From contig JBBTQB010000007.1 of NCBI GenBank assembly GCA_038065835.1, forward strand, positions 1 to 51,420: a DNA stretch of 51,420 nucleotides. Direction: 5' to 3'. Shown one piece after another: positions 16,915 through 50,984 of this stretch. The notes under the pieces are model-generated. The model ran no database searches. It worked only from the letters and a program-made list of their open reading frames with translations, and was not told the DNA's origin. Positions within the stretch are counted from its first letter, which is position 1, and each line of letters opens with the position of its first letter. The position numbers and the translations under genes are program-made. This DNA is from Patescibacteria group bacterium. Its GTDB lineage: Bacteria; Patescibacteriota; Minisyncoccia; Minisyncoccales; Staskawiczbacteraceae.

Positions 16915-16981
16915 GGGTGTTTGGTGTTAGGTTTTGGCTTATAACGATTCCCCGTTATCTAATACCTAACACCTAAAACCC
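16915..16981. repeat. Intercistronic long hairpin
   Basis: GGGTGTTTGGTGTTAGGT (16915-16932) pairs with ACCTAACACCTAAAACCC (16964-16981) at 16/18 positions. Inner ATAACG-attcc-CGTTAT contains the CCCCGTTA word. Confidence 0.75.
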
Positions 16982-16993
16982 ATCACCTAGCGC

Positions 16994-38568: not shown

Positions 38569-38587
38569 AATTTACTGCGATAAATTT

Positions 38588-38672
38588 CCTACGAATAGCG
38601 AATATTTTCGAATTACGAATTATTACGTGTGATTTTTTTTATTCGTAATTCGTTGCATTCGTAATTCGTAGG
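38588..38672. repeat. Family-D repeat array (ATTCGTAATTCGT direct and inverted)
   Basis: CCTACGAAT (38588-38596) pairs with ATTCGTAGG (38664-38672). CGAATTACGAAT (38609-38620) pairs with ATTCGTAATTCG (38641-38652). A second direct copy is at 38657-38669. Confidence 0.8.
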
Positions 38673-38676
38673 GCCT

Positions 38677-39546: not shown

Positions 39547-39552
39547 AGTAAT

Positions 39553-41589
39553 TTATTCCCTTGCGCTTTTTAACGCACTATAAAATGTTTCGTATTCTTT
39601 TACTAATTGGTAGTCATCAACATTCGCAACAAGATCATCATATTTTTGTGCATTTATAGTTTTTAAAGACTGACGTATTTTCTCAAAAACACCCTTGATT
39701 TTTTCTTCGGACGGATTTCTGGTGTCGACTATATATTCATAATGGCTTAATATGGGCGATTTGCTTAATAAGTATTTTAGTTCCGTAGCATCTTCTTCTT
39801 TTGTTCCAGGTGAAAAATCAAAGAATAATTCTGGCATAGCTTCCCTCATTTTTACTCTAAATCTTGGACTCTCTTTGAGGAGTTTCTCAAAATCTTTATG
39901 AGATTTTAATTCTTCAAACACTTCCCTTTGTAGGTTGTTATCTAAAAAAATCAACGATTGTGCATGGTAATCTGAAAGTGTTTTATTTTTTAAGTAATTT
40001 TTAAGAATACCCCTAAAATCTAGTTCAGAATTTGTTTGCGAAATCTTATATAGCGTTTCAATTTCAGTCCTGTCTGCACTCTCTGCAATTTTTAAGTATT
40101 CTTGTCCAATTGCTTTAATAAATGGTTTTGGTAGTCCCTGCGGCACTCCTTGTTTTTTCATCAGTTCCAATGCTCTTGATACATAAAACTGCTTTTCTTC
40201 TTCTGGGCTTACATGACCTCCTACATCACCAGGTTTTTCCATTTTCAAGGCATAAAAAGACAGAATGTGTTTTAATTGTTCTTCCTTATTTGGAGCAGTA
40301 TCTTTAAGGTCTTTTCCAATTGCATTAACCACAGGCTCCATTCTGGTGAGCGTATAATCTAAACCTTCTATCTCTTTAGTATCTAAATTTCTCTTTGCCC
40401 ACGTAGTATCAATGATAACCGCATTTGCAGCACCCCCTCTTGAAACAGTAACGAATGTATTCCAAGCATGTCCGCTCTTATTCATTTGTTGCTTGTTCCA
40501 ATCCTCTCTTTTGGGAGCAAAAGTTTCTGTGCCTTTTTCATATAGGCAATAAGTATCACGAAGTTGACTGAACTGCGTTTGGTTTTCCTTTAATGCTTCA
40601 AAAACTGCTTTAATAGCACTGGCAAAATTTCTGCAGACTCCATTACCCTTCCAATCTTTATTATCTCTTTTTTTCTTTCCTTCTTTCAAAAGTTCCAAGG
40701 TAGTGCTTTCATCTGCCTCTGTTTTTTCTGGCTCACCCGTATAAATTCCTTTGTATTTTTTTACATCACTCCACTTATATTTCGTTAAATCAATAACTAT
40801 TTGAGTTGCTAACTCTATTGCTTGTTTTGGAGTAAGTGCATCTAAATGTTCAATTTTTAACTGCTTCAAAATGTCTTGACCATCCTTTTGGAGATGTTCA
40901 GAAACAAAAGCAAAGAGCTTTTTCTCCCAATCTTTTTCTTTAATTGTTTCTTGATACGTTGAAGCTCCCGGTTCAGTTCCGTCCAGTCTTCCTTCCCCTA
41001 TTAAATACTTTTTAATGGAATCTGGTATTTCGTGAGTCTCTTTTGACGGGGCAACATTTGGATTAAATGCGGTAAGTTCTTCAAAGGCAATCTTTTCATT
41101 TTCAGCTGTTTTAATTTCAAGCAAGGGATTACGTGTTAACTTTTCCTCATCTTTTCTCCTTTCTAAAAAATAATCCTTAGCTTCGTTCCAGGTATCAAAT
41201 TCTTTATAGGTTGTGCCAATATAATGACCTGTTTTTGTATCAACTAATCCCGGAAGCATAACTCTAAATTTGCCCTCTGGATTTTCATCAATTCTGAAGA
41301 AATATTTTGAATATGTTTTTTCCAGCGAGGCTCTTTCAAATTGCTCTTTCACATCTTCTTTTACTTGTTCTACGGCTGTCTCAGCTTCTTGTCTTGTTTC
41401 AAAAATTTTCTTGGTTGTTCCAAAAATCAACCTTTTATTTTTATCCAAAAGACCGGGCATATTAACTTCAAAACCATTTTCAACTGGACTTATTTCATAC
41501 AAACCTATCACAGATTTCTTTTTTTCTGGCTTTAACCGTTCTTTATTATCTTGTGATTGTTGTTGTGACTGCTCATTTTTTTTTGACAT
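39553..41589 (-). CDS. Large cytoplasmic protein with transglutaminase/papain-like Cys-His-Asp core and duplicated N-terminal module
   Basis: 678 aa, no signal peptide. Candidate triad GVCRNFA / SGHAWNTFV / IIDTTW. Two ~50-aa N-terminal repeats (NGFEVNMPGLLDKNKRLIFGTTKKIFETRQEAE and GKFRVMLPGLVDTKTGHYIGTTYKEFDTWNEAK). Confidence 0.45.
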   Translation of the reverse strand: MSKKNEQSQQQSQDNKERLKPEKKKSVIGLYEISPVENGFEVNMPGLLDKNKRLIFGTTKKIFETRQEAETAVEQVKEDVKEQFERASLEKTYSKYFFRIDENPEGKFRVMLPGLVDTKTGHYIGTTYKEFDTWNEAKDYFLERRKDEEKLTRNPLLEIKTAENEKIAFEELTAFNPNVAPSKETHEIPDSIKKYLIGEGRLDGTEPGASTYQETIKEKDWEKKLFAFVSEHLQKDGQDILKQLKIEHLDALTPKQAIELATQIVIDLTKYKWSDVKKYKGIYTGEPEKTEADESTTLELLKEGKKKRDNKDWKGNGVCRNFASAIKAVFEALKENQTQFSQLRDTYCLYEKGTETFAPKREDWNKQQMNKSGHAWNTFVTVSRGGAANAVIIDTTWAKRNLDTKEIEGLDYTLTRMEPVVNAIGKDLKDTAPNKEEQLKHILSFYALKMEKPGDVGGHVSPEEEKQFYVSRALELMKKQGVPQGLPKPFIKAIGQEYLKIAESADRTEIETLYKISQTNSELDFRGILKNYLKNKTLSDYHAQSLIFLDNNLQREVFEELKSHKDFEKLLKESPRFRVKMREAMPELFFDFSPGTKEEDATELKYLLSKSPILSHYEYIVDTRNPSEEKIKGVFEKIRQSLKTINAQKYDDLVANVDDYQLVKEYETFYSALKSARE

Positions 41590-41635
41590 AAGTTCAATAT
41601 CTGACCAATCATCTGCGAGATGGACAAATTACTCA

Positions 41636-42262
41636 CTATGAAATGCTTAGATGATTGAAGAATGACCTAAACAACTTCAAGCCGTTGTTTTGTGATTTCT
41701 CGGGGTGAAATTGGACTCCAAAAATATTATCTTTTTGCACCGCCACCGCCATCTCTTGGCCATAATTACAAGTTGCCGCAGTATATTTTCTATTACACTC
41801 TAAATAGTAGCTATGGTCAAAATAAAAATTTGAACCATCTGATAATTTTGAGAATAAAGGCTCTTTTTTAAAAATATTTATTGTATTCCATCCAACGTGA
41901 GGTATTCTAAATCCCTTTTTTTCTTTAAACCTTACAACATTCCCGCTTATAAAACCCAATCCCCTGTGAAATCCGTTTTCTTCTGACCAGTCAGCAAACA
42001 CCTGGAATCCCAGGCAAATTCCTAAAATCGGCTTTTTCTTTTTTAAAACTTGTTGCTTTAACAATTGAGTGATTTTAAACTTTTCAAGATTCTTCATTGC
42101 TTCGCCAAAAGCGCCAACACCGGGTAAAATAAGAACCTTGGCATTTTCAATGTCCTTTTTTTTATTTGAAACCAAAAAATCATATCCTAAGGATTCAAGC
42201 GCGTTTATCACCGATTGATCATTTCCAACCCCATAATCAATAATAAGAATGGGTTTGTTCAT
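41636..42262 (-). CDS. HisH-like glutamine amidotransferase subunit (WbuY-type)
   Basis: 208 aa. Nucleophile elbow GICLGFQV. HVGWN. FGVQFHPEKS. Confidence 0.85.
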   Translation of the reverse strand: MNKPILIIDYGVGNDQSVINALESLGYDFLVSNKKKDIENAKVLILPGVGAFGEAMKNLEKFKITQLLKQQVLKKKKPILGICLGFQVFADWSEENGFHRGLGFISGNVVRFKEKKGFRIPHVGWNTINIFKKEPLFSKLSDGSNFYFDHSYYLECNRKYTAATCNYGQEMAVAVQKDNIFGVQFHPEKSQNNGLKLFRSFFNHLSIS

Positions 42263-43383
42263 TTTAACTCTACTTTTAATTTAAATTTCTCATTTCTATC
42301 TTTTTTCCAGATGTTTTTATTACGATATGATTCAGCAACTTTCCAAAATTTCTTTTCTGAAATTCCAAGGTATTTACAAAATCTTTTAATAAATCTATCA
42401 GCGCATTTGCCATCGTACTTTTTAACAAACTCTATTGCTTTTTTTCTTGTTATCATTTTGAGTCTCACTGCTTCAGCTATCTGGTCGGTAACTTGGCCAA
42501 AACCAAATTTTAAATATTTTAGCATCTGGTTTACCACTACATAGTCTTCGTCTAAGGCGCCGAAGCCATAAATATCTCCAATATCTTCAGGCGGATCGTC
42601 CCGCACCATCAAACCTCTTTTAACAGCAAATTCAGCATTTTTAAACCTTGTGAAATCTTTTATATAGTAACCCAAATAAACAATTCTCAATTTTGCCCAC
42701 TCTAATTCTTCATCTTCAGGATATTTGTATAAAATAAGATCTTGGTCCTCCATTTCTTCAGTCACTAAATTATTTTTTCTTGGATCTCCCCCTTGCAACG
42801 TATGATAATATTTCATTTTGTTTGCATCTCCTGTTAAAGATCCGACACCCGTATCTCCCATGGCGATAGCTGGATTTTCTCCTAAAAATATAAGAGGGAT
42901 ATGATAGGCAATAGCAACCTTAGGAGCCGACGCGTAAAGAGCCATCTCTGTTGATTTACACCAATTTCCATATTTCAAAAACCCTTGCAACATTAATTTT
43001 TTCCATACTTTAGGATTTGGAGCCGTTGTAATACAGTCAAAACCCAGGGAAATGAGATTTGATATGTTGCGAGCTCCCCTTTCTGCAAGCTGCTCTGGTG
43101 GGTATTGGCAAGAAACCAATAACGGCTTTAATCCTAGCTCATCTCTAACAAATATGGACTGGCGAGTACTGTCTTTTCCTCCGCTCACCCCAATAATACA
43201 ATCGTATCCTGAAACATTATGTTTCTTCCCATATTCAGCAATTTCCTTTAATTCCCTAGCTCTTTCCCCCCAATCAATTGCTTGGGTCTGTTTAGCAAAA
43301 AAACAGGCCAGGCAAACCCCATTTTTATCAAATTGAATGCCAGGCCTGGTATCTGGTTGAACACATTCTTTGCAATATTTCAT
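42259..43383 (-). CDS. N-acetyl sugar amidotransferase (WbuX/PseA/LfnA-type), copy 1
   Basis: 374 aa. CKECVQPDTRPG...CLAC. Canonical PP-loop IIGVSGGKDS. Confidence 0.8.
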   Translation of the reverse strand: MKYCKECVQPDTRPGIQFDKNGVCLACFFAKQTQAIDWGERARELKEIAEYGKKHNVSGYDCIIGVSGGKDSTRQSIFVRDELGLKPLLVSCQYPPEQLAERGARNISNLISLGFDCITTAPNPKVWKKLMLQGFLKYGNWCKSTEMALYASAPKVAIAYHIPLIFLGENPAIAMGDTGVGSLTGDANKMKYYHTLQGGDPRKNNLVTEEMEDQDLILYKYPEDEELEWAKLRIVYLGYYIKDFTRFKNAEFAVKRGLMVRDDPPEDIGDIYGFGALDEDYVVVNQMLKYLKFGFGQVTDQIAEAVRLKMITRKKAIEFVKKYDGKCADRFIKRFCKYLGISEKKFWKVAESYRNKNIWKKDRNEKFKLKVELK

Positions 43384-43405: not shown

Positions 43406-44116
43406 TTAACTTGATTTTCTAGCGTCTTCAATAAATATAGCCACTCCCTCTTTGGATTTTGCCGATACTAAGGATTTAGCAAGGGCTTCCGGAGGAATAG
43501 TTATGGCGTGGCCTCCAGCTCTTGAAAAGTATTCAACGTTTTCTGGACTCCTTACGGAAGCTATTAAAATTTCAACACCATTAATCTGATAACAATCAAG
43601 CCAATCGCGCGTATTTTTAATTGCGTTAAAAGCGACTTGAACTCCGTGCTCTTCTGCGATTCTACCCGCAAAAATGCTGATGAAATGAGGTTTTTTTGCA
43701 TTTGCAGATTGTAAACCATTGGCAAGAGTTTTTGCTGTCAATATTGCCTGATTATAGGTCATCACTGAGGTCACGTTTATAATTATTCCCTCTTTGACCA
43801 ATTGATTAATCGCTGAAAGCAAAGAGTTGCCATTTCTGTCAATTACAGTCACTTTCACTACTATATTTAGAGCCCAGTTGGTAAATTCTCTTGCCTGGCT
43901 TATAATTTCTTCTGGGTTTTCTGATGTTACTTCAACACTTAGTGGTCTTGGATCAATTAATTTTGCAATTTCCAGGATTCTTTCCTTAACTTTTTCCTTG
44001 TCCAAAATTCCCGCTTTTACAAAAGTTGTGGGATTGGTAGTAACCCCGTCGCAAAGCCCTTCTGCAAGATATTTTTTAATTTCCTCTATGCTGGCTGTGT
44101 CTATAAATATTTTCAT
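43406..44116 (-). CDS. Fructose-6-phosphate aldolase / type-3B transaldolase family protein
   Basis: 236 aa. MKIFIDTASIEEIKK and DGVTTNPT. Confidence 0.8.
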   Translation of the reverse strand: MKIFIDTASIEEIKKYLAEGLCDGVTTNPTTFVKAGILDKEKVKERILEIAKLIDPRPLSVEVTSENPEEIISQAREFTNWALNIVVKVTVIDRNGNSLLSAINQLVKEGIIINVTSVMTYNQAILTAKTLANGLQSANAKKPHFISIFAGRIAEEHGVQVAFNAIKNTRDWLDCYQINGVEILIASVRSPENVEYFSRAGGHAITIPPEALAKSLVSAKSKEGVAIFIEDARKSS

Positions 44117-44133
44117 ATTTTGTTCTTTTTAAT

Positions 44134-46380
44134 TTAACTTTGTTTTACGAGATTGCCAATCCAATTAATTCTTTTGGGGACCGAGGTACTTTCTGCTTTT
44201 GTAGATACATAGTTTACTAAATCAAAATATCTGTTTGTCGAATTTTCATTGTCAAAATAACCATGCAAATATAAATTATTGTTCAACATACGAACATTAT
44301 CCTCAATAAAGACGGCTGAATGCGTTGTAAACTTATGCTCTTCTGGTCCCTTATCAGAATCTTGAAAAAGGTAAAGATTTTTCAGTTCTCCTTCTTTAAA
44401 GGCTCTTTTAAGGTCTTCAAGAACTTGCTCTTTAGAGACATTATTTGTAAGCTTGAACCTAAAATCAAGCATTGAAACTCCGTCGTAGGGAACGACGGTG
44501 TAATTTACCGTAAAATTATTTTTGTTAATGAAATCTAAAAGATTAGGTCCTGATTTTTCAAGAGTACAAAATTTTCTGTTCATAGTATTAAAATCTTTAA
44601 GTTTGTAATTGGGAACACTGTGTACAAAGTTAGCATCGCTTTCCAAAACGCCGTACTTTTTATTGATATAATTTGTTAAAGGAACATATGAGTTGACTGT
44701 GCAAGAACCGTAAGAAATTACCTTCATGTCTTTATTGTATTCAAGATGATTAAAACCATAAATTAAATTTTTAGCGTCCCATGAAGTTGCAGAAATTACT
44801 ACTAATTTTGTGTTGTCTAGAATATACTTTTCACAGTCTTTGGCAATATTGTTTTTACCAGAGCATTCCAAAAATATATTAGGCTTTCCTACCCAAGGTA
44901 TTTGGTCTTTTAATTTGTTTGTATACTCTATAGTAACCTTTGCGGCATCTGAGTCAGAAAAAACCAAATTACTTTGCAATATACTCACCTTATAATCTTT
45001 AAAAGAAACGTAAGAGTCATTATTAATGATAGAAAGCGCATCTTCAATTGAAAGAAAATTATCGTTAATGTAATTAATTTCAAAATTAGCGCTGTTTTTC
45101 CTATCAAGCCAATACCTTAAAAGGTGAAGTCCGAACCTGCCAAATCCATTTATTCCAGTAGTTGTTATAGGCCTTGTTTTAATAATGAGGGTTTCTTGTA
45201 TTTTATCTTCTATTTTCAGTAAATCTTCAAGTGTATCTGCAGAACTTATAATTTGATTGGTCCTTGCAGCTGAATGTACCAGGGGTTTTACTCTATCTCC
45301 AATTTTAGACCTGAAATAGACATCTCGCACCCCCCTTATATTTTTAAGTTCTTCTGCCCCTTGAATATCAACAATGATTCCTGAATCATGGATTACCGAA
45401 ATGGTAGAAGACCATTTCACCCATTTGGGCACCAAGTCAACCGGATCTAATGGAAGCCCACAGGCAATATCTATTGTAGCTTTTAAGATATCCATGCCAA
45501 AGCTATAGGGTTTTCTCAGTTGTGAATCAAATCCTCCGGAAGTTCTGGCAGTTACTTCAAGAATTCTTACATTTCCCTCTTCATCTACTAATAAATCTCC
45601 CTTAAATGCTCCATCCGTGACACCCAAGACCTTGGCAGCTTTATCCATTTTTTCATACATGGCGCTCTGCACGCTTTCTGGCAGTAAAGAGGGAGTGCGG
45701 GAGCCAATATGCACCGCATATTTTTCCTTTGGCAGGAAAATCCTGTCTGAAACGCCAGCGGGATATAATTTACCCTGATACAAAACTGTGTCCACACTAT
45801 ATTCTTCACCTTTTAATTCTTCTTCAATTAAAACTTCTTTTGTAAAGTTGCAAAAACTTAACGCTAAGTTAAATGCTTGCTCTAACTGGTCTTCGCTAGT
45901 TATTTTAGTTATCCCCTTACAAGCCCAGCTGTCTGCTGGCTTTACATAACAGGGGAAACCAACATCTTTTACTGCTTCCTCAACTTCCTGTAGGTTCTTA
46001 GCCGTGGCGAAGCGGACATTTTCTACGCCAGCCCCCGAAAGAATGTGACGCATTCTAATTTTACTCTTGCAATTTAAAGCAGCTTCGGGGTCTATGCCGG
46101 GCAAACCAGCTTCTTTTGCAGCATAAGCTACGGTGTAAGCGACATCATGTCCTTGAGTGTATACTGCAATGATTTTGCCTTCTGACTTTAACTGCTTTGC
46201 CACTTTAGCTGCTCCACCTAAGTCATTTATATCAACGCAATAGAAAAAGTCAGCGTATTCTCTTGCAACACAGTTTTCTGAACCATCTAAAAGATAGGTG
46301 GTAAAACCAAGCTCTTTTGCCTTCTTCAAACCCGGTATCTGCAGCTCACCCCCCCCAATAATTAAAATTCCTTTTTCCAT
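44134..46380 (-). CDS. Fusion protein: N-terminal ATP-grasp ligase + C-terminal divergent GAPDH-like dehydrogenase
   Basis: 748 aa. Residues about 1-400 are ATP-grasp-like (GFPCYVKPADSWACKG, ILEVTARTSGG). Residues about 405-748 carry GAPDH landmarks INGFGRFGLHLLR, SYGSCTVNSYVPL (catalytic Cys context) and YFDNENSTNRYFDLV. Confidence 0.7.
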   Translation of the reverse strand: MEKGILIIGGGELQIPGLKKAKELGFTTYLLDGSENCVAREYADFFYCVDINDLGGAAKVAKQLKSEGKIIAVYTQGHDVAYTVAYAAKEAGLPGIDPEAALNCKSKIRMRHILSGAGVENVRFATAKNLQEVEEAVKDVGFPCYVKPADSWACKGITKITSEDQLEQAFNLALSFCNFTKEVLIEEELKGEEYSVDTVLYQGKLYPAGVSDRIFLPKEKYAVHIGSRTPSLLPESVQSAMYEKMDKAAKVLGVTDGAFKGDLLVDEEGNVRILEVTARTSGGFDSQLRKPYSFGMDILKATIDIACGLPLDPVDLVPKWVKWSSTISVIHDSGIIVDIQGAEELKNIRGVRDVYFRSKIGDRVKPLVHSAARTNQIISSADTLEDLLKIEDKIQETLIIKTRPITTTGINGFGRFGLHLLRYWLDRKNSANFEINYINDNFLSIEDALSIINNDSYVSFKDYKVSILQSNLVFSDSDAAKVTIEYTNKLKDQIPWVGKPNIFLECSGKNNIAKDCEKYILDNTKLVVISATSWDAKNLIYGFNHLEYNKDMKVISYGSCTVNSYVPLTNYINKKYGVLESDANFVHSVPNYKLKDFNTMNRKFCTLEKSGPNLLDFINKNNFTVNYTVVPYDGVSMLDFRFKLTNNVSKEQVLEDLKRAFKEGELKNLYLFQDSDKGPEEHKFTTHSAVFIEDNVRMLNNNLYLHGYFDNENSTNRYFDLVNYVSTKAESTSVPKRINWIGNLVKQS

Positions 46381-46396
46381 ATTATAGACTTGCTTT

Positions 46397-46427
46397 GTAA
46401 TAATTTTTCGTGACGAAAAATTATTAC
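46397..46427. repeat. Intercistronic 14-bp perfect hairpin incorporating the HAD stop codon
   Basis: GTAATAATTTTTCG-tga-CGAAAAATTATTAC. Confidence 0.85.
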
Positions 46428-47122
46428 GCAGTAAGTTTTTTTTCTAATTCTTTTAAACTTTTAACTATTATTAAATTGTCTTTAACTAAATTTTCTTTGT
46501 TATTCGTTATCCAACAAACTTTAGCTCCCATATTAAGAAATCCCTCAACATCATTTTTAAAATTATCACCTATATAAAGAAACTCTTCTGGAAATTTTAC
46601 TGATATTTTATTCAAATATTTATTAAGACTTTCAAGTATTTTTTTGGTTGGTTTTTTATCTTTCTTGCCTTTTCCGTAAATAACGAAGTCAAAATAATCA
46701 TAAATTCCGGCCTTTTTTATTCTTCCTTCCTGGTACGACCGTTTTCCATCTGTAATAATTCCCATTTTAAATACAGTTTTCTTTATTGATTCCAATAAAT
46801 CTTTTGCGCCATTTAGGAGTTTTTCGTCTTGGAAAGTTTTTCTTAGTTCTAATAAAATCTCTTCTTTAAATTCCTTGCCAATTTTAAGCTCGGCTAAAGT
46901 ATCATCTAAGTGAAATTTGTAATTTGGTCCCTTCTTATTATATATCTCAAAAAACCTTTTTTCCAAATTTGGTGATAAAAAACTGTAATCTCTTAAAACT
47001 TTTTGCCACCTTTGTCTTATTGAATACTGCCCGTCAATCAAAGTATCATCAAAATCAAATCCAATTGCTCTTATGTTTCCAAAAAATTTAGTATTTCCTG
47101 ATTTTTTCTGTAATTTTGCCAT
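46424..47122 (-). CDS. HAD-superfamily phosphatase
   Basis: 232 aa. DxDxT motif GFDFDDTLIDG. ITDGK. YIGDNFKNDVEG. Confidence 0.7.
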   Translation of the reverse strand: MAKLQKKSGNTKFFGNIRAIGFDFDDTLIDGQYSIRQRWQKVLRDYSFLSPNLEKRFFEIYNKKGPNYKFHLDDTLAELKIGKEFKEEILLELRKTFQDEKLLNGAKDLLESIKKTVFKMGIITDGKRSYQEGRIKKAGIYDYFDFVIYGKGKKDKKPTKKILESLNKYLNKISVKFPEEFLYIGDNFKNDVEGFLNMGAKVCWITNNKENLVKDNLIIVKSLKELEKKLTA

Positions 47123-47777
47123 ATTTTTTCCTTAGCTGGCTAATTCCTTTTTCTACAACTTTTTCATCAAAAGTCAAACTGCCTTCTGTTCTTATGTAGA
47201 CATATAGGGGAATGGGTAGGTGTTTGCCTATTTTTTTGGCTTTCATCATTCTCAACAAAAAGTCATATTCTGCAAATACAAAATCTTTGTTGTAAAGCCC
47301 TAATTCTTTGAATAATTCTTTCTTAAACATTATTGCAGTAGCCAAGCTGTTAAATATGTTTTTTTTTAAAGAAACCTTTTTCCTTTTTACGCCATAAAAA
47401 GGCTTTTCAAAATAATCACAATAAACAAAGTCCGCAAATTTATCCTTTTCAAATTCCTTCAACATTTTTTCTAAAGTATAGGGAAGAAACTGGTCATCTG
47501 AATCAAGTAAAGTTACATATTTGCCCCGGCTTTCCAAAATACCTCTATTGGTTGCAGGAGTACCTCCCAAGTGTTCTTGATGAATTAATCTTATTTTCCC
47601 TTTGTAATTTTTTAGGATATCCAGTGTATTGTCTTCTGACCCATCATCTATTACCAGGATTTCGTAAAGTTCTTTATTTAATGTTTGACGAAGAGCGCTG
47701 TCAATAGCTTTTTTCACGAATTTCCCTGAGTTATAAGTACGTATTATAACGCTTATTTTTGGTTTGTTATTTTTCAT
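47088..47777 (-). CDS. GT2-family glycosyltransferase
   Basis: 229 aa. ISVIIRTYNSGKF, VIDDGSEDNT, LLDSDDQF. Confidence 0.8.
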   Translation of the reverse strand: MKNNKPKISVIIRTYNSGKFVKKAIDSALRQTLNKELYEILVIDDGSEDNTLDILKNYKGKIRLIHQEHLGGTPATNRGILESRGKYVTLLDSDDQFLPYTLEKMLKEFEKDKFADFVYCDYFEKPFYGVKRKKVSLKKNIFNSLATAIMFKKELFKELGLYNKDFVFAEYDFLLRMMKAKKIGKHLPIPLYVYIRTEGSLTFDEKVVEKGISQLRKKYGKITEKIRKY

Positions 47778-47786
47778 TTCAAATTT

Positions 47787-48893
47787 TCATTTTGAAAGCA
47801 CGTGTTCCCAACTTATGCTCCGATATTTTTGCAGATTTTTTGTTGCTTTATATCCCCCAACCAGCAATTCGTAATACTTAGGGTCCAATCCTCTTCTATG
47901 ATTGCCCGGTCTTAAAACGGCAATATTTTCCCTGCTGAATTTTTCCCCCTTTTTAATGTTTTTTATGGCAAAGACGCATCTTTGAGCAAAGGATCTAGGA
48001 ATCATTTCATTTTTATAAGCTTTTCTTTCTGGACTCCCTAGTAATTGGTTTTGAATCTTTATTTTCCTGCCTATTTTCATCTCTTTTTCTGTTCGCCTTA
48101 TGGTTTTTACCATTAAAGTAAGCTCTTTGGGCTCTAGGGCAAAAAAGTGATCAGGCCCTGGCATATTTTTATCTAGTGTTATATGTTTTTCAATGATTTT
48201 TGCTCCCAATGCCACGGCTGCCCTTGGCGCAATTATTGGGTCAGCTGAATGGTCTGAATATCCTATCACTATATCAGGAAAAGCTGTCTTTAGGGCGTAA
48301 ATCACAGAAAGATTAAGTCTATTCAGGGGTGCTCCGTATTCGGCAATGCAATGCAGAAGGGCTATTCTATTGTTTTTTTCCTCTTTAAATATTTCCAGTG
48401 CCTCTGCTATCTCTTTTATTTCAGCTGCCCCACAGGAAAATATAATTGGCTTCTGGAATCTAGCCACATATCTTAAAAGTGGAATGTGGGTTATTTCATA
48501 CGAGGCAAACTTAAAAGCTGGCATTTTGTATTTTTTTAAGATATCCGCCCCCTTCTCTTCGCAGACAGTGCAAAAAAATTCTAACCCCTTACTTTCAGCA
48601 TATTTCTTTAATTTGGGAATCCAACTTTGGGGCAATTGGGCACTTTTGACTATTTGATATATATTCTTCTTCCTGCCTTGACCGCTTTTATCATTTCCGG
48701 CGCTAGGAGGATACATTTTTTTAGCAAAAAACAGTTGAAATTTTACCGCATCGCAACCGGCCCTTGCCGCTGAATCTATCAATTTTAAGGCATTTTCGTA
48801 TTCTCCATTAAAGTTAATACCAACTTCAGCAACTATAAAACAGGGGTTGCTGCCTCCAATTTTAGTTTTTCCAATGTTAAACTCTTTTGCCAT
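47787..48893 (-). CDS. Nonulosonic-acid synthase (NeuB/PseI/LegI family) with SAF domain
   Basis: 368 aa. CFIVAEVGINFNG, DAVKFQLF, GYSDHS. C-terminal SAF-like RENIAVLRPG. Confidence 0.85.
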   Translation of the reverse strand: MAKEFNIGKTKIGGSNPCFIVAEVGINFNGEYENALKLIDSAARAGCDAVKFQLFFAKKMYPPSAGNDKSGQGRKKNIYQIVKSAQLPQSWIPKLKKYAESKGLEFFCTVCEEKGADILKKYKMPAFKFASYEITHIPLLRYVARFQKPIIFSCGAAEIKEIAEALEIFKEEKNNRIALLHCIAEYGAPLNRLNLSVIYALKTAFPDIVIGYSDHSADPIIAPRAAVALGAKIIEKHITLDKNMPGPDHFFALEPKELTLMVKTIRRTEKEMKIGRKIKIQNQLLGSPERKAYKNEMIPRSFAQRCVFAIKNIKKGEKFSRENIAVLRPGNHRRGLDPKYYELLVGGYKATKNLQKYRSISWEHVLSK

Positions 48894-48913
48894 AAATTAT
48901 AATTTTGATATTT

Positions 48914-48969
48914 ATCCCGCACTTAAAAATATATCTCAGCTACAAAATCATAATTTTTAAGTGCGGGAT
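48914..48969. repeat. 17-bp perfect inverted repeat, family-A-like core (AGTGCGGGAT)
   Basis: ATCCCGCACTTAAAAAT (48914-48930) pairs with ATTTTTAAGTGCGGGAT (48953-48969), 22-nt loop. Core GTGC[G]GGATT resembles the family-A GTGCAGGATT. Confidence 0.8.
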
Positions 48970-49035
48970 TCCGCTCGTAATTTAAGCTTCCTATAAGTAA
49001 GCAAAAACTTGTTAATAGGGCTTGAATTACTCGCT

Positions 49036-50232
49036 TCATTTTCTGTAATATGCAATAATTTTTATTACGGCCCTAACAACATCCTCTGCATCTTTCTTGC
49101 CTAAATCAGGATGCATAGGCAAGGAAATTATTCTGTCAAAAATATATTCTGCATTGGGAAAATTACCTCGTCTAAATCCAAATTTTTCCTTATAATAAGG
49201 GTGCAAATGGACAGGAATAAAATGAACGCTGGCTCCAATATTTTCTGCGTCCAAAGCAATGAAAAACTGATTTCTGTCTACTTTTAATTTATCAATGTCA
49301 ATTAAAATTGAGTACAGGTGCCTAGCGTGCTTTATGTACTTTCTTGGAGTAGGAATAGTGATTTCTTTAACATGTTTAAAATTCTTGTTATAAAACTGGG
49401 CTATTTTTTCTCTCTTCCTAATAAAACCCTCCAATTTTTTAATTTGATGCATGCCCATAGAGGCCTGGATGTCTGTCATATTATATTTAAATCCAGGATA
49501 CTTTATCTCATAATACCAATATCCTTTCTTAGAATACCTTTTCCAGGCATCCCTATTCATACCGTGTAGACTCATTACTCTTATCTTTTCTTCTGCGTTA
49601 TTATCTTTTAAGCAAACCATTCCACCTTCGGCAGTCGTTATATTTTTTGTTGCGTAAAAGCTGAAGGTTGTATAATCACTGATTGTTCCTATATTTCTGC
49701 CTTTATACTTAGCTCCTATGGCGTGAGCCGCGTCCTCTATTACTACTAAGTTATGCTTCTTGGCAATCTTTAAAATTTCATCCATATCGCAGGGATGTCC
49801 TCCGTAGTGCACGGGCATTATGGCTTTGGTTTTCTTTGTTATAGCTCTTTCAATTAAACTAGGATCAATATTATAGGTATCTTTTTGAATATCAACGAAA
49901 ACCGGTTTTGCTCCAACATGCAAAATGACATTAGAAGTAGCCGCAAAAGTAAACGGGGTTGTAATAACTTCATCCCCGAACCCAATACCAGCTGCAATTA
50001 GTGATAAATGTAGCCCGGCAGTACAGGAATTTAAAGCTACGGTATATTTGCAACCCACATATTTTCTAAGTATCTGTTCAAATTTATGTGTTTTTGGACC
50101 AGTGGTTATCCAGCCCGATTTTAAAGTATCAACTACTTCACTAACTTCCTCCTTGCCAAAAGAATAAGGGAAGGGAGATAGTTGACTTTTTCTTACTTTT
50201 TTACCACCGGCAATAGCTGGTTTCTCTATCAT
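49036..50232 (-). CDS. DegT/DnrJ/EryC1/StrS sugar aminotransferase (PseC/LegC/ArnB-like)
   Basis: 398 aa. PLP lysine in FSFYATKNITTAEGGMV. Confidence 0.85.
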   Translation of the reverse strand: MIEKPAIAGGKKVRKSQLSPFPYSFGKEEVSEVVDTLKSGWITTGPKTHKFEQILRKYVGCKYTVALNSCTAGLHLSLIAAGIGFGDEVITTPFTFAATSNVILHVGAKPVFVDIQKDTYNIDPSLIERAITKKTKAIMPVHYGGHPCDMDEILKIAKKHNLVVIEDAAHAIGAKYKGRNIGTISDYTTFSFYATKNITTAEGGMVCLKDNNAEEKIRVMSLHGMNRDAWKRYSKKGYWYYEIKYPGFKYNMTDIQASMGMHQIKKLEGFIRKREKIAQFYNKNFKHVKEITIPTPRKYIKHARHLYSILIDIDKLKVDRNQFFIALDAENIGASVHFIPVHLHPYYKEKFGFRRGNFPNAEYIFDRIISLPMHPDLGKKDAEDVVRAVIKIIAYYRK

Positions 50233-50984
50233 ATTCTATTTCTTTGAACTATATGAGCGTTAATTTCTTTTAATTCCGGCTTTTGATTAATAAACTCTAA
50301 AACTTCTTCTGTTCCAAAAAATTCTCCTTTCTTATACAAATTTTCGTAAATTTTAGTTATTAATTCCAAGTCTTCTTTAGTATCAAGAGTTAAGCGCAAA
50401 TCAGGATTTTGGAAGTATTTGGGAAGTTCTACCTTGCTAATCTTAAAAATATTGGGGTTTTCTTGAAAATAAGATGTAAGGTTTTCTCTGTTATAGGTGT
50501 CTCCTGCCTTTTTATAAGCCAAATCTAATGCTTGAAAATTCAAAACTGCTACATCTAATCCCAAAGGCAGAAGCCTTGAGGGATAAGAGGTGTCAGTATA
50601 GTCAGAATTTCTGTCTATGTGTTGTTTAATTGTTAAATCAATTATCTCTGGATCAATTAGGGGCTTATCAGCCGGAACTTCTACAACAACGTCACAGCCA
50701 TTTTCTTTAGCCGCTAAATAAACCCTTTCTAGAACTTCTTTTTCGCTGCCTCGGTAATAGGAAATCGAGTTTTCCAAGGCAAATTTCTCTAAAATATCAT
50801 TCTCTTTTGTATTAGGAATCGCTAAAATAATCTGGCTCATCAATTTTGAAAACCTTAAGCGCTCAATGATGTGCTGCAGTACAGATTGGCCAAAAATAGG
50901 AAGTAAAACTTTTCCTGGCAATCTTTCAGAGCTCATTCTTGCTTGAATAATTGCAGATATTTTTTTTTGCTCCGAGTTTACCAT
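50229..50984 (-). CDS. NulO/acylneuraminate cytidylyltransferase-family protein (SpsF/PseF-like)
   Basis: 251 aa. AIIQARMSSERLPGKVL. Confidence 0.75.
   Translation of the reverse strand: MVNSEQKKISAIIQARMSSERLPGKVLLPIFGQSVLQHIIERLRFSKLMSQIILAIPNTKENDILEKFALENSISYYRGSEKEVLERVYLAAKENGCDVVVEVPADKPLIDPEIIDLTIKQHIDRNSDYTDTSYPSRLLPLGLDVAVLNFQALDLAYKKAGDTYNRENLTSYFQENPNIFKISKVELPKYFQNPDLRLTLDTKEDLELITKIYENLYKKGEFFGTEEVLEFINQKPELKEINAHIVQRNRI

What the first reader, a model, noticed from the sequence alone, without database searches (positions are those of the whole stretch)
43406..47122. Aldolase + (ATP-grasp-GAPDH) + HAD phosphatase: a predicted in-locus supply line for a C3 acyl substituent
Three consecutive genes form a coherent hypothetical route:
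1. An FSA/transaldolase-type aldolase cleaves fructose-6-P, giving glyceraldehyde-3-P.
2. The GAPDH-like domain oxidises it to a 3-phosphoglyceroyl intermediate.
3. The ATP-grasp domain couples it to an amino sugar.
4. The HAD enzyme (DxDxT) removes the phosphate.

Four methyltransferases elsewhere in the locus could O-methylate the product. Di-O-methylglyceroyl pseudaminic acid derivatives are known from Campylobacter flagellin. Central-metabolism enzyme paralogs dedicated to glycan decoration would be notable in a reduced genome.
Basis: inference. Interest (0 to 1): 0.6.

Follow-up and report, generated by a model that had tools for sequence, protein, structure and literature searches.

The report
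Acylation module for sialic-acid-like sugars
Three neighbouring genes in a tiny groundwater bacterium (a phosphatase, an ATP-dependent ligase fused to a divergent GAPDH-like dehydrogenase, and a transaldolase) are real; the first two are an uncharacterised module found in sialic-acid-like sugar operons of many bacteria and archaea that probably attaches a small hydroxy-acid side chain, though whether that chain has three carbons is unproven.

Summary
Coordinates 43406-47122 (- strand) hold a transaldolase, an ATP-grasp/GAPDH-like fusion and a HAD phosphatase. They sit in one operon between NeuB/PseC/CMP-transferase genes and acetamidino genes.

HAD + ATP-grasp + GAPDH-like recurs next to NeuB in at least 18 distinct loci. 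Hosts include CPR, Woesearchaeota, SAR86, Pelagibacteraceae and Prochlorococcus. Fusions occur in both directions, so the three genes are functionally linked.

The genome has a separate housekeeping GAPDH. The transaldolase is its only one, but it is not housekeeping:
- 36 of 40 relatives lack any transaldolase.
- The genome has no transketolase and no PFK.
- FBA and TPI already supply G3P.

- The aldolase has transaldolase-type residues (Glu/Phe), not FSA-type.
- It accompanies the module in only one CPR locus family.
- The GAPDH-like family keeps Cys/His and the NAD site but has lost Thr179, Arg231 and the Pi loop. It carries a family-specific RKxCTLE motif.

In seven other loci a bona fide PdxA-family enzyme takes the GAPDH-like slot. 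This hints at a C4 (4-phospho-tetronate) chain rather than C3.

My best reading is that the module ligates a phospho-hydroxy-acid to the sugar amine and then dephosphorylates it. Precedents are Neisseria PglB2 and C. jejuni Cj1438/Cj1435. The biochemistry is untested.

The parts
46424..47122 (-). HAD-IA phosphatase, 232 aa. It has motif I DFDDT, a later IITDG, and GDNFKND.
   Evidence: Pfam HAD_2 E 6e-23. The best NCBIfam match is TIGR02253, 104 bits, below its 169.75 cut-off. The closest solved structures are PH1655 and human/mouse N-acylneuraminate-9-phosphatase, E 1e-11. In other lineages it is fused N-terminally to the ATP-grasp (P0015, P0031, L064, L066).
45166..46380 (-). ATP-grasp ligase domain, residues 1-405 of the 748-aa fusion. 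It is of the L-amino-acid-ligase/Ddl type.
   Evidence: Pfam Dala_Dala_lig_C, ATP-grasp_4 and LAL_C2. PDB by sequence: 4DIM, 3VOT, BacD. Foldseek: 3VOT TM 0.84. There are 51 invariant columns across 14 family members, including K147, E186, E193, D262, E275 and R279.
44134..45165 (-). Divergent GAPDH-superfamily dehydrogenase domain, residues 406-748.
   Evidence: Gp_dh_N E 8.7e-9. TIGR01534 scores 112.7 bits against a 367 cut-off. Cys149, His176, the NGFGR motif, the NAD Asp and the DNE motif are kept. Thr179, Arg231, the 206-215 loop and Cys153 are lost. The family-specific motif R-K-x-C-T-L-E is conserved, with the C-x-L-E core invariant in the 30 members aligned. The clade is monophyletic, 100/100, on a very long branch from GapA/Epd. 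Only 49 clusters at 50% identity reach E<=1e-30 among 1.84 billion representatives.
43406..44116 (-). Short (about 240 aa) Patescibacteria-type transaldolase.
   Evidence: Pfam TAL_FSA E 1.9e-36. The alignment to Thermoplasma transaldolase 3S0C keeps Asp6, Glu60, Lys86, Phe132 and Arg135. It is the only TAL_FSA gene in the genome. Hundreds of CPR homologues have 56-63% identity.
47088..50984 (-). Upstream operon genes: GT2 (47088-47777), NeuB-family synthase (47787-48893), PseC-like aminotransferase (49036-50232), CMP-NulO cytidylyltransferase (50229-50984).
   Evidence: PseC TIGR03588 scores 405.6 bits against a 423.5 cut-off. NeuB Pfam E 2e-79.
37309..43383 (-). Downstream acetamidino-forming set: WbuX (42259-43383), HisH (41636-42262), an inserted 678-aa gene (39553-41589), WbuZ/HisF (38677-39546), and a second WbuX-like gene (37309-38568).
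   Evidence: The synteny is conserved in L004, L061, L104 and L105.

Best explanation
HAD, ATP-grasp and the GAPDH-like dehydrogenase form a horizontally mobile tailoring module of pseudaminic/legionaminic-type NulO operons. The transaldolase is a fourth gene added in one CPR locus family.

The most likely chemistry is inferred, not shown:
1. The GAPDH-like domain uses NAD+ and its Cys/His pair to oxidise a small phosphorylated aldose to the matching phospho-aldonic acid. The candidates are glyceraldehyde-3-P or erythrose-4-P, the two aldose phosphates a transaldolase normally handles.
2. The ATP-grasp domain activates that acid as an acyl phosphate. It then joins it by an amide bond to an amino group of the sugar intermediate, most simply the 4-amino group made by the PseC-like aminotransferase, which becomes N7 of the NulO.
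3. The HAD enzyme removes the terminal phosphate.

The product would be an N-glyceroyl (C3) or N-tetronoyl (C4) NulO. In this locus it would also be converted to the 5-acetamidino form by WbuX/HisH/HisF.

My odds within this reading are roughly C3 40%, C4 40%, other acid 20%. The role of the transaldolase is unresolved.
For: **Linkage of the three genes**
- The order HAD, ATP-grasp, GAPDH-like, usually adjacent to or near NeuB, occurs in 7 loci of the window's type and 11 other distinct loci. Hosts are Peribacteria, Yonathbacteria, other CPR, Woesearchaeota, SAR86, Pelagibacteraceae, a Prochlorococcus single-cell genome and unclassified Proteobacteria.
- ATP-grasp is fused to GAPDH-like here. 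HAD is fused to ATP-grasp in P0015 and P0031, and GNAT-HAD-ATP-grasp fusions occur in L064 and L066.
- The fusion here arose by loss of the stop codon in a GTGA/ATGA overlap.

**The enzymes look active**
- ATP-grasp and HAD catalytic motifs are intact.
- The dehydrogenase keeps Cys149, His176 and the NAD motifs, and has a complete GAPDH fold.

**A phosphorylated intermediate is implied**
- The constant partner is a phosphatase.
- In other contexts the family sits next to an IMPase-family phosphatase, nucleotidyltransferases and a D-threonate-kinase-like gene.
- In seven loci a PdxA-family enzyme takes its place.

**The module is dedicated, not housekeeping**
- A separate housekeeping GAPDH exists.
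- None of 40 relatives has the module, and 36 of 40 lack a transaldolase.
- The GAPDH-like tree is scrambled with respect to taxonomy.

**A free amino group is plausible.** No PseH-type GNAT was found in this genome or in the operon.

**Precedents**
- The PglB2 ATP-grasp domain determines 4-glyceramido-2-acetamido-trideoxyhexose in Neisseria (PMC11130364, PMC6959607).
- The Cj1438C amidoligase plus the Cj1435 HAD phosphatase were shown in vitro (PMC11800397, PMC11800379).
- N-glyceroyl Pse exists in Tannerella forsythia and Campylobacter. As of 2017 the enzymes were unknown (PMC5378307, PMC5420450).
Against: - No member of the module has been assayed.
- The GAPDH-like family lacks Thr179, Arg231 and the 206-215 loop that bind the substrate phosphate and inorganic phosphate in GAPDH. 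E. coli Epd keeps Arg231. Neither G3P nor E4P is therefore an orthodox fit. A new anion site made by the conserved Arg-Lys of RKxCTLE is only my inference.
- 3-phosphoglycerate is abundant everywhere, so a dedicated G3P dehydrogenase seems unnecessary.
- This genome has no transketolase, so E4P has no obvious source here. A transaldolase cannot make E4P without sedoheptulose-7-P.
- In SAR86, L005 and Woesearchaeota a PseH-like GNAT sits beside, or is fused to, the HAD-ATP-grasp pair. The ligase therefore does not simply replace PseH everywhere, and its acceptor atom is uncertain.
- PdxA chemistry (oxidation, normally with decarboxylation) does not produce an acid. The equivalence of the two dehydrogenases is not explained.
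- No homologue was found in T. forsythia by the pattern-based scans.
Confidence: 0.45

Rival explanations
1. The aldolase splits fructose-6-P to give G3P. The GAPDH-like domain makes a 3-phosphoglyceroyl intermediate. The ATP-grasp couples it to the amino sugar, and the HAD enzyme removes the phosphate. Locus methyltransferases then make a di-O-methylglyceroyl NulO.
For: - N-glyceroyl and dihydroxypropionyl Pse derivatives are known (PMC5378307; bioRxiv 10.64898/2026.04.20.719630).
- The PglB2 precedent is for glyceramido.
- With no transketolase and no PFK, fructose-6-P is the only likely donor for the transaldolase here. G3P would be its only aldose product.
- A Methyltransf_23-type gene lies directly upstream of the HAD gene in several other module loci: L006, L007, L063, L073 and L075.
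Against: - The residues are transaldolase-type (Glu60, Phe132), not FSA-type (Gln59, Tyr131). Release of G3P therefore needs an acceptor aldehyde.
- FBA, TPI and housekeeping GAPDH already provide G3P and 3-PG.
- The transaldolase is absent from the module outside one CPR locus family.
- The G3P phosphate-binding residues are lost.
- The PdxA and threonate-kinase associations do not fit a C3 unit.
- The window's methyltransferases lie 9-26 kb from the module.
Confidence: 0.2
2. This is mirror-image ligation, as in C. jejuni Cj1438C/Cj1435. The ATP-grasp would activate a sugar carboxylate, for example C1 of the NulO or a uronic acid. It would join it to a phosphorylated amine. In the PdxA variant that amine could be the PdxA product 3-amino-2-oxopropyl phosphate. 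The HAD enzyme then removes the phosphate. The dehydrogenase would make or trim the small partner.
For: - It is the only version of this logic proven in vitro (PMC11800397, PMC11800379).
- It gives the PdxA-family partner (TIGR00557, 325-341 bits, above its cut-off) a natural product, which is a phospho-amine.
- It is compatible with loci that keep a PseH-like GNAT.
Against: - A GAPDH-type Cys/His enzyme makes acids, not amines.
- Cj1438C is a TupA-like ATP-grasp, whereas this one is the Ddl/L-amino-acid-ligase type.
- I know of no report that CMP activation tolerates a C1 amide (my own knowledge).
- The module sits among precursor-stage genes (PseC, NeuB, CMP-transferase), not polymer-stage genes.
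Confidence: 0.12
3. This is amino-acid ligation. The L-amino-acid-ligase-like ATP-grasp would attach a phosphorylated amino acid, such as O-phosphoserine or 4-phosphohydroxythreonine. The HAD enzyme dephosphorylates it, and in some lineages a GNAT caps its amino group. The dehydrogenases feed the amino-acid precursor pathway.
For: - The closest characterised ATP-grasp relatives are L-amino-acid ligases (3VOT, BacD; the LAL_C2 domain).
- GNAT-HAD-ATP-grasp fusions exist.
- N-aminoacyl and N-acetyl-aminoacyl NulOs are known (my own knowledge).
- Epd (a GAPDH paralogue) and PdxA both belong to the 4-phosphohydroxythreonine pathway in E. coli (established pathway knowledge; epd fetched).
Against: - The module has no PdxB/SerA-type or SerC-type partner as a constant member.
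- PdxA would destroy 4-phosphohydroxythreonine rather than supply it.
- This window's locus has no GNAT.
Confidence: 0.1
4. The fused ATP-grasp/GAPDH-like protein would run in the reductive direction as a carboxylate reductase: acid to acyl phosphate to aldehyde. This resembles aspartate kinase plus aspartate-semialdehyde dehydrogenase. The aldehyde would be extended by the transaldolase or NeuB, and the HAD enzyme would remove a phosphate afterwards.
For: - An acyl phosphate is the one labile intermediate shared by the two enzyme classes, which rationalises the fusion (inference).
- The transaldolase needs an aldehyde acceptor.
- The HAD enzyme resembles N-acylneuraminate-9-phosphatase, an enzyme that acts after an aldol-type condensation.
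Against: - The NAD-type Asp after the first beta-strand is conserved, which fits an oxidative NAD+ enzyme.
- The transaldolase is absent from most module loci.
- No candidate acid substrate is evident.
- The 6-deoxy precursors implied by the PseC-like gene leave no 9-phosphate.
Confidence: 0.07
5. The transaldolase, and possibly the GAPDH-like gene, would be ordinary central-metabolism genes that happen to lie in the glycan locus.
For: - It is the only transaldolase in the genome.
- It belongs to the common roughly 240-aa Patescibacteria transaldolase family.
Against: - A separate housekeeping GAPDH exists.
- 36 of 40 relatives lack a transaldolase.
- There is no transketolase partner.
- The position between the GAPDH-like gene and WbuX or PseB is conserved in the 6 loci whose contig extends past the dehydrogenase gene (of 7 of this type), at 63-72% transaldolase identity.
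- In L106 the same transaldolase family sits in a heptose pathway locus, so glycan-dedicated use has a parallel.
Confidence: 0.03

Closest known systems
Neisseria meningitidis PglB2 (phosphoglycosyltransferase with an ATP-grasp domain) making 4-glyceramido-2-acetamido-2,4,6-trideoxyhexose (PMC11130364, PMC6959607)
   Same: In PglB2 an ATP-grasp domain stands where an N-acetyltransferase normally acts on a UDP-4-amino-4,6-dideoxy-hexosamine. The result is a hydroxy-acyl (glyceroyl) amide on the 4-amino group. The PseC-like enzyme here should make the same kind of acceptor.
   Different: - The PglB2 assignment rests on genetics and mass spectrometry.
- Its acid donor is not described in the papers I could read.
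- PglB2 is fused to a phosphoglycosyltransferase, not to a dehydrogenase.
- Specific homology of the two ATP-grasp domains was not tested here because no sequence was obtainable.
Campylobacter jejuni Cj1438 C-terminal amidoligase plus Cj1435 HAD phosphatase (PMC11800397, PMC11800379)
   Same: This system performs ATP-dependent amide formation with a phosphorylated small partner. A dedicated HAD phosphatase then removes the phosphate. The genes lie together in a surface-glycan locus, and the reactions were shown in vitro.
   Different: - The polarity is reversed there: a sugar carboxylate is joined to a phospho-amine.
- The ligase is a TupA-like ATP-grasp, not a Ddl/L-amino-acid-ligase type.
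- It acts on the growing polymer.
- It has no dehydrogenase partner.
Phosphorylating GAPDH (GapA) and erythrose-4-phosphate dehydrogenase (Epd)
   Same: - The whole fold is shared (Foldseek TM 0.85-0.89).
- The Rossmann NGFGR motif, the NAD Asp, catalytic Cys149/His176 and the C-terminal DNE motif are shared.
   Different: - Scores lie far below the family cut-offs: 112.7 against 367 for GAPDH-I, and 64 against 530 for Epd.
- Thr179, Arg231, Cys153 and the 206-215 loop are lost, and the S-loop region is about 17 residues shorter.
- The family carries its own conserved RKxCTLE motif.
- It forms a separate clade of about 50 clusters found only in glycan-type loci.
Canonical CMP-pseudaminic acid pathway PseB-C-H-G-I-F, and the Pse5Am7Gra sugar of Tannerella forsythia (PMC5378307, PMC5420450)
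   Same: - A PseC-like aminotransferase, a NeuB-family synthase and a CMP-transferase are present, together with acetamidino-forming genes.
- An N7-hydroxyacyl, N5-acetamidino NulO would resemble the Tannerella sugar, for which the modifying enzymes were reported unknown in 2017.
   Different: - No PseH is present in this genome.
- PseB and PseG were not identified in the window.
- No homologue of the module was found in Tannerella by the scans used.
Short archaeal/bacterial transaldolase (Thermoplasma acidophilum, PDB 3S0C) versus fructose-6-phosphate aldolase FSA
   Same: The catalytic Asp6, Glu60, Lys86, Phe132 and Arg135 align with the Thermoplasma transaldolase.
   Different: - The protein is not FSA-like: it has Glu, not Gln, and Phe, not Tyr.
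- It lies in a glycan operon of a genome with no transketolase.

Membership tests
Transaldolase (Pfam PF00923, short TalC/archaeal type) | Family score above the curated cut-off. | tested here: met
   Pfam scores 126.3 bits against a cut-off of 27. The NCBIfam equivalogs are not reached: fsa_talC_mipB 113.8 against 245.95, and transald_staph 107.7 against 281.95.
Transaldolase (Pfam PF00923, short TalC/archaeal type) | Schiff-base Lys86, Asp6, the general acid/base Glu60, and Phe132 (Thermoplasma numbering). | tested here: met
   The HMMER alignment to 3S0C matches IVVKVT to AVVKIP, SVEV to SVEV, SIFAGR to SPFVGR, and FIDTA to FLDTA.
Fructose-6-phosphate aldolase (FSA) | Gln59 in place of Glu, and catalytic Tyr131 in place of Phe (established from FSA/TalB studies; my own knowledge). 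| tested here: not met
   Both positions are transaldolase-type, Glu and Phe.
Type I phosphorylating GAPDH (TIGR01534) | Catalytic Cys149/His176 and the NAD-binding motifs. | tested here: met
   The motifs GSCTVN, VHS, NGFGR, IND and FDNE are conserved across the 30 family members aligned.
Type I phosphorylating GAPDH (TIGR01534) | Anion sites: Thr179, Arg195 and Arg231 (the Ps site), and the Ser148/Thr208-Gly209 loop (the Pi site). | tested here: not met
   Thr179 is replaced by Pro, Gln or Ala. Arg231 is replaced by Val, Ile or Gly in all members. There is a 10-residue deletion at 206-215. MAFFT and HMMER alignments agree on Thr179 and Arg231.
Type I phosphorylating GAPDH (TIGR01534) | Score above the equivalog cut-off. 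| tested here: not met
   It scores 112.7 bits against 367.2, and only model positions 3-186 are matched. The housekeeping copy scores 414 bits.
Erythrose-4-phosphate dehydrogenase Epd (TIGR01532) | Score above the cut-off, and retention of Arg231 as in E. coli Epd. | tested here: not met
   It scores 64.4 bits against 530.55. Epd has VRVP where the family has TVVP. The family is a separate clade. Activity on E4P is not excluded by this.
ATP-grasp superfamily, L-amino-acid-ligase/Ddl-like | ATP-grasp domain models above their cut-offs, plus the LAL C-terminal domain. | tested here: met
   Dala_Dala_lig_C scores 53.4 against 24, ATP-grasp_4 scores 45.9 against 27, and LAL_C2 scores 41.8 against 29.4. 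Foldseek gives 3VOT a TM of 0.84.
PglB2-type glyceramido-forming ATP-grasp | Specific sequence relatedness to the PglB2 C-terminal domain. | not tested
   No PglB2 sequence could be obtained.
Cj1438C-type amidoligase with Cj1435 HAD partner | TupA-like ATP-grasp fold. | tested here: not met
   The Pfam hits are Ddl, LAL and CPSase types, and no TupA-like model is listed. Cj1438C is described as TupA-like (PMC11800379).
Cj1438C-type amidoligase with Cj1435 HAD partner | A dedicated HAD phosphatase encoded next to the ligase. | tested here: met
   The HAD gene is directly upstream here. It is adjacent or fused in all 25 module loci examined.
HAD superfamily phosphatase, subfamily IA | Motifs I-IV, with the Asp nucleophile and the Asp+2 residue. 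| tested here: met
   The motifs DFDDT, IITDG, a Lys-rich motif III region and GDNFKND are read from the translation. HAD_2 scores 82.2 against 23.8.
N-acylneuraminate-9-phosphatase / TIGR02253 family | Score above the family cut-off. | tested here: not met
   TIGR02253 scores 104.4 against 169.75. Human NANP scores only 48 bits. This is a resemblance, not membership.
CMP-pseudaminic acid pathway | PseC, PseI and PseF present. | tested here: inconclusive
   PseC scores 405.6 against 423.5. PseI scores 266 against 340, and the NeuB model scores 302 against 400. CTP_transf_3 is present. Pse-type versus Leg-type is not decided.
CMP-pseudaminic acid pathway | PseH N-acetyltransferase present. | tested here: not met
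   TIGR03585 finds nothing in the whole genome at E<=0.01. There is no GNAT in the operon.

The most novel reading that the evidence does not exclude
The RKxCTLE GAPDH-like family and the PdxA-family enzymes that replace it in the same gene slot may be two interchangeable suppliers of a 4-phospho-tetronate (4-phosphoerythronate or 4-phosphothreonate). One route would oxidise erythrose-4-P. The other would run the PdxA2-type reaction backwards from dihydroxyacetone-P and CO2. The module would then install an N-trihydroxybutanoyl group on nonulosonic acids. I know of no report of that decoration. It would occur on the surfaces of CPR, DPANN, SAR86, SAR11 and Prochlorococcus cells.
Probability: 0.2. 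Interest if true: 0.8.

Novelty: new variant of a known kind. Interest (0 to 1): 0.6.

Why it matters
Nonulosonic acids are the outermost sugars on many microbial surfaces, and their N-acyl groups set charge, antigenicity and phage or host recognition. As of 2017 the enzymes that install hydroxy-acyl groups such as glyceroyl were still unidentified (PMC5378307, PMC5420450), and I found no later assignment.

This module is a concrete candidate that can be cloned:
- It consists of three small soluble enzymes, here compacted into two.
- It is spread by horizontal transfer through ecologically dominant but mostly uncultured lineages.
- It contains an undescribed branch of the GAPDH superfamily whose substrate site has been rebuilt.

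In a 0.69-Mb genome that spends a 51-kb contig (about 7% of the assembly) on glycan genes, importing copies of central-metabolism folds for surface decoration shows how much these reduced cells invest in their surface.

Tried and rejected
**PglB2 homology.** A direct comparison with PglB2 was not possible.
- Chamot-Rooke 2007 and Viburiene 2013 are not held.

**Organisms with a known NulO structure.**
- Pattern-based scans with two ATP-grasp alignments and one GAPDH-like alignment found no Tannerella, Campylobacter or Neisseria locus.
- These scans need exact peptide patterns, so this is weak negative evidence.

**Literature.**
- A search for C4 hydroxy-acyl NulOs (dihydroxybutanoyl, trihydroxybutanoyl, erythronoyl, threonoyl) returned nothing relevant.
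- Searches that combined ATP-grasp, GAPDH, HAD and nonulosonic or glyceric acid found no description of the module.
- Riegert 2022 was not held.

**Structure.** The AlphaFold model and Foldseek confirmed the folds only. Coordinates could not be inspected, so I could not test whether the RKxCTLE residues line the active site.

**Ideas considered and rejected.**
- The transaldolase supplies G3P. FBA, TPI and GAPDH are already present.
- The transaldolase supplies E4P on its own. That needs sedoheptulose-7-P, and there is no transketolase.
- The HAD enzyme is a NulO-9-phosphate phosphatase. The PseC-type chemistry implies a 9-deoxy sugar.
- The ATP-grasp universally replaces PseH. PseH-like GNATs are adjacent or fused in some lineages.

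Full report
**1. What is in the sequence**

The window is a whole 51,420-bp contig (C7) of a 692-kb genome in 68 contigs that is about 95% complete. Earlier notes of this scan call it a groundwater Patescibacteria (CPR) genome. All genes lie on the - strand.

At the stated coordinates there are three ORFs:
- 46424-47122: 232 aa.
- 44134-46380: 748 aa.
- 43406-44116: 236 aa.

Pfam assigns them as follows:
- HAD_2: E 6e-23.
- ATP-grasp families plus LAL_C2 at residues 106-401, and Gp_dh_N at 409-509.
- TAL_FSA: E 1.9e-36.

The genes are separated by 43 and 17 nt, and the upstream GT2 gene overlaps the HAD gene. No terminator-like site lies on the - strand between 42000 and 51420. The best promoter-like site lies upstream of the HTH gene at the contig end.

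The surrounding genes are these:
- Upstream: a CMP-sugar cytidylyltransferase, a PseC-like aminotransferase (405.6 bits against a cut-off of 423.5), a NeuB-family synthase and a GT2.
- Downstream: WbuX, HisH, an inserted 678-aa gene, WbuZ/HisF, a second WbuX-like gene, a second DegT aminotransferase, a methyltransferase, a GFO oxidoreductase and a flippase.

**2.

(a) Housekeeping gap. A canonical GAPDH lies on contig C2 and scores 414 bits, above the TIGR01534 cut-off. The locus copy scores about 100-113 bits and matches only the first half of the model.

(b) Housekeeping tal. The locus gene is the only TAL_FSA gene in the genome. It is still not a housekeeping gene of this lineage:
- Of 40 relatives (24 in the same genus), only 4 have any transaldolase, and those share 32-36% identity with it.
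- The genome has no transketolase and no PFK.
- It does have class II FBA, TPI and GAPDH.
- None of the 40 relatives has the ATP-grasp or the GAPDH-like gene, although about a third have NeuB.

The whole set is accessory. The caveat is that the assembly is only about 95% complete.

(c) Co-occurrence. See sections 3 and 4.

**3. A conserved three-gene module**

Searches with the fusion protein, and with alignments of its halves, gave the following:
- Six fused homologues with 74-79% identity.
- Many stand-alone ATP-grasp proteins of about 411 aa with 34-61% identity.
- HAD-ATP-grasp fusions: P0015 and P0031.
- Woesearchaeota proteins in which a PseH-like GNAT, HAD and ATP-grasp are joined in one ORF. 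L066 is 859 aa. L064 is 1334 aa and also carries a B12/radical-SAM domain.

The gene order HAD, ATP-grasp, GAPDH-like, adjacent to or near NeuB, recurs in these hosts:
- A 687-kb CPR scaffold (L006).
- Yonathbacteria (L063).
- Peribacteria (L011).
- An uncultured bacterium (L012).
- Woesearchaeota (L040/L064 and L066).
- SAR86 (L009).
- A Proteobacteria MAG (L023).
- A Pelagibacteraceae single-cell genome (L045, partial).
- A Prochlorococcus single-cell genome (L067).
- Contig L005.

Fusions in both directions, together with conserved adjacency across bacterial and archaeal phyla, are strong evidence that the three enzymes act in one process linked to NulO synthesis.

The window's fusion is recent. 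In L104 and L105 the ATP-grasp is 83-88% identical and the GAPDH-like gene 70-74% identical to the window's halves. There the two genes are separate and overlap by GTGA or ATGA. The window reads through that junction: IIKTKQS* followed by VTTTGINGFG has become IIKTRPITTTGINGFG.

**4. The transaldolase is a clade-specific addition**

A transaldolase follows the GAPDH-like gene in the six loci of the window's own type that extend past it: the window, L004, L060, L061, L104 and L105, at 63-72% transaldolase identity; L062 ends at the fusion gene. No other module locus has one within the fetched flanks.

The protein belongs to the common roughly 240-aa Patescibacteria transaldolase family, which has hundreds of homologues at 56-63% identity.

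Its alignment to Thermoplasma transaldolase 3S0C keeps Asp6, Glu60, Lys86, Phe132 and Arg135. FSA is distinguished by Gln and Tyr at the Glu60 and Phe132 positions (my knowledge of the FSA/TalB literature). This is therefore a transaldolase, not a fructose-6-P aldolase.

In a Paceibacterota contig (L106) the same family sits with an HldE-kinase-like PfkB, a GmhA-like SIS protein, a HAD and a GT9 heptosyltransferase. Use of this transaldolase as a sugar-phosphate supplier for glycans thus has a parallel.

Here its role stays unresolved:
- G3P is already available.
- E4P cannot be made from fructose-6-P by a transaldolase alone.
- Fructose-6-P is the only likely donor in a genome without transketolase.

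Among 20 other host genomes of the module or of the GAPDH-like gene, 19 have a transketolase match above the Pfam cut-off and 6 have a transaldolase. The one genome examined that lacks transketolase is the one whose module carries a transaldolase. I cannot explain this mechanistically.

**5. The GAPDH-like enzyme is a distinct small family with a rebuilt substrate site**

Family size. In 1.84 billion representative proteins, only 49 clusters reach E<=1e-30, and canonical GAPDHs follow at 90 bits or less.

Phylogeny. The family is monophyletic (100/100) on a very long branch from E. coli GapA, E. coli Epd and the genome's own GAPDH. Taxonomy inside it is scrambled; for example a Woesearchaeota sequence is sister to a Prochlorococcus sequence, which indicates horizontal transfer.

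Residues. The alignments show:
- Conserved: NGFGR, the NAD Asp, Ser-Cys149-Thr, His176 and the DNE motif.
- Lost: Thr179; Arg231, which is Val, Ile or Gly in every member whereas Epd keeps it; Cys153; and about 17 residues of the S-loop and 206-215 region.
- Gained: a conserved R-K-x-C-T-L-E motif, whose C-x-L-E core is invariant in the members aligned.

Fold. The AlphaFold model (pLDDT 87) superposes on GAPDH and on an Acinetobacter E4P dehydrogenase with a TM of 0.85-0.89.

The enzyme therefore probably still forms a thioester from an aldehyde, but it is not an orthodox G3P or E4P dehydrogenase. That the Arg-Lys pair provides a new anion site is my inference.

Other contexts. About two-thirds of the family's loci lack the ATP-grasp. 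There the gene is coupled to the following:
- RfaE-II/TagD-like cytidylyltransferases, one with a TagF-like transferase (L013, L018).
- HddC-like nucleotidyltransferases with a PGM/PMM (L029, L030).
- An IMPase-family phosphatase (L016).
- An AMP-binding enzyme and an SDR (L015).
- A D-threonate-kinase-like DUF1537 protein (L027).
- A carbamoyltransferase and a methyltransferase (L034).

The common theme is a small phosphorylated building block for glycans.

**6. A second variant with PdxA**

In seven distinct loci the slot after HAD and ATP-grasp, usually just before NeuB, holds a PdxA-family dehydrogenase. The hosts are a Nanoarchaeota, Euryarchaeota SM23-78, two Gastranaerophilales, a Bacteroidales, a Prevotellaceae and an uncultured bacterium. 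Their ATP-grasp is 43-56% identical to the window's.

The three PdxA partners scanned against NCBIfam score 325-341 bits, above the TIGR00557 cut-off of 290; the other four match Pfam PdxA at E 1e-96 or better. The three also match the D-threonate-4-phosphate dehydrogenase model at 255-313 bits.

All characterised PdxA-family substrates are 4-phospho C4 hydroxy-acids (established knowledge: PdxA, and PdxA2 working with DUF1537 kinases). Epd, a GAPDH paralogue, makes 4-phosphoerythronate in the same E. coli pathway (the epd gene was fetched).

This coincidence and the DUF1537 neighbour give the C4 reading about as much support as the C3 reading. Against C4, no such NulO decoration is known to me, none was found in the literature search, and this genome has no evident E4P source.

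**7. The other two enzymes**

ATP-grasp. It is of the L-amino-acid-ligase/Ddl type, with 4DIM, 3VOT and BacD as closest solved relatives. Its invariant residues fit an ATP-using ligase.

HAD. It has all the catalytic motifs. Its closest solved relatives are P. horikoshii PH1655 and human/mouse N-acylneuraminate-9-phosphatase at E 1e-11. This fits a substrate with a terminal CH(OH)-CH2-O-phosphate on a NulO-like scaffold, but it is only a resemblance, because TIGR02253 scores below its cut-off.

Acceptor. The genome has no PseH-type GNAT, so the 4-amino group made by the PseC-like enzyme is a plausible acceptor here. In SAR86, L005 and Woesearchaeota a PseH-like GNAT is adjacent or fused, with a best NCBIfam hit to PseH of 34-50 bits, below the cut-off. 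The acceptor position is therefore not settled in general.

**8. Comparison with what is known**

- Tannerella forsythia. It makes Pse5Am7Gra, and CMP-Pse5Am7Gra is present in its nucleotide-sugar pool. As of 2017 the enzymes for the Am and Gra groups were reported as unknown (PMC5378307, PMC5420450).
- Campylobacter. Glyceroyl-type Pse derivatives are reported.
- Neisseria. The ATP-grasp-containing PglB2 allele determines a 4-glyceramido sugar in place of diNAcBac (PMC11130364, PMC6959607).
- C. jejuni. The Cj1438 C-terminal ATP-grasp amidoligase joins serinol-P or ethanolamine-P to glucuronate, and the HAD enzyme Cj1435 then removes the phosphate. This was shown in vitro (PMC11800397, PMC11800379).

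The module here combines both ideas and adds a dedicated dehydrogenase. I found no description of it in the searchable literature.

Earlier AI notes of this scan had flagged the same trio in a Yonathbacteria genome as conserved and uncharacterised. I reproduced that independently with L063.

**9. Verdict**

- The 'supply line plus ligase plus phosphatase' idea is reasonable for HAD, ATP-grasp and GAPDH-like, and comparative genomics supports it well as a functional unit.
- The FSA-type cleavage step is not supported.
- The transaldolase is a lineage-specific extra of unknown role.
- The identity of the acyl group (C3, C4 or other) and the acceptor atom are open.
- The link to methylation is only suggestive. 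A Methyltransf_23 gene abuts the module in several other lineages, but not here.

I rate it a new variant of a known kind of system, namely ATP-grasp-based acylation of amino sugars followed by HAD trimming. It contains an undescribed GAPDH-superfamily branch. Interest is 0.6.

Noticed in passing
L007/L065, L070-L075 (loci): A second version of the module has a bona fide PdxA-family dehydrogenase in the exact slot of the GAPDH-like gene. The three scanned with NCBIfam are above the TIGR00557 cut-off. Hosts are Nanoarchaeota, Euryarchaeota, Gastranaerophilales, Bacteroidales and Prevotellaceae.
   Followed up: partly
L064:3232-7236 and L066:4657-7236: Woesearchaeota encode giant fusions. L066 is GNAT (PseH-like) + HAD + ATP-grasp, 859 aa. 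L064 is GNAT + B12-binding/radical-SAM + HAD + ATP-grasp, 1334 aa. The neighbouring CMP-transferase is fused to a class III aminotransferase (721 aa).
   Followed up: partly
L013:7579-9035, L018:7468-8996: In two Planctomycetota loci the GAPDH-like gene is translationally coupled to an RfaE-II/TagD-like cytidylyltransferase. In L013 a TagF-like glycerophosphotransferase follows it. This hints at a CMP- or ADP-activated phospho-acid or phospho-alcohol.
   Followed up: partly
L106:4036-8849: A Paceibacterota transaldolase (59% identical to the window's) lies between an HldE-kinase-like PfkB gene and a HAD, a GmhA-like SIS gene and a GT9 heptosyltransferase. This looks like a dedicated sedoheptulose-7-P supply for heptose synthesis.
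   Followed up: partly
window 44134-45165 and alignment A2: The GAPDH-like family has a second invariant cysteine, in RKxCTLE. The Cys153 of canonical GAPDH is lost. Its role is unknown.
   Followed up: no
window 39553-41589: A 678-aa gene with no Pfam or NCBIfam match splits the HisH/WbuZ pair. It is absent at this position in L004, L061, L104 and L105. Earlier notes call it a transglutaminase-like insertion.
   Followed up: no
whole genome G000: No transketolase, no PFK (PF00365) and no PseH-like GNAT were detected, while class II FBA, TPI and GAPDH are present. Transketolase is patchy in the genus: 7 of 15 same-genus genomes sampled have it above the Pfam cut-off. Transaldolase is rare: 2 of 24.
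   Followed up: partly
window 26041-26871: A ParB_N-domain gene sits in the middle of the glycan gene array, between a TylF-type methyltransferase and a sugar dehydratase.
   Followed up: no
window 10008-17611: A second sugar block resembles a bacillosamine-type pathway. It has a PglF-like dehydratase, a DegT aminotransferase, a small hexapeptide acetyltransferase and a PIG-L deacetylase. It also has two WbqC-like genes, each paired with a Bac_transf gene.
   Followed up: no
L012/L069:5995-7226: In one uncultured bacterium the ATP-grasp of the module is split into two ORFs (137 and 276 aa). This may be a frameshift or a sequencing error. A second, distant ATP-grasp plus a HAD lie 3 kb downstream.
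   Followed up: no
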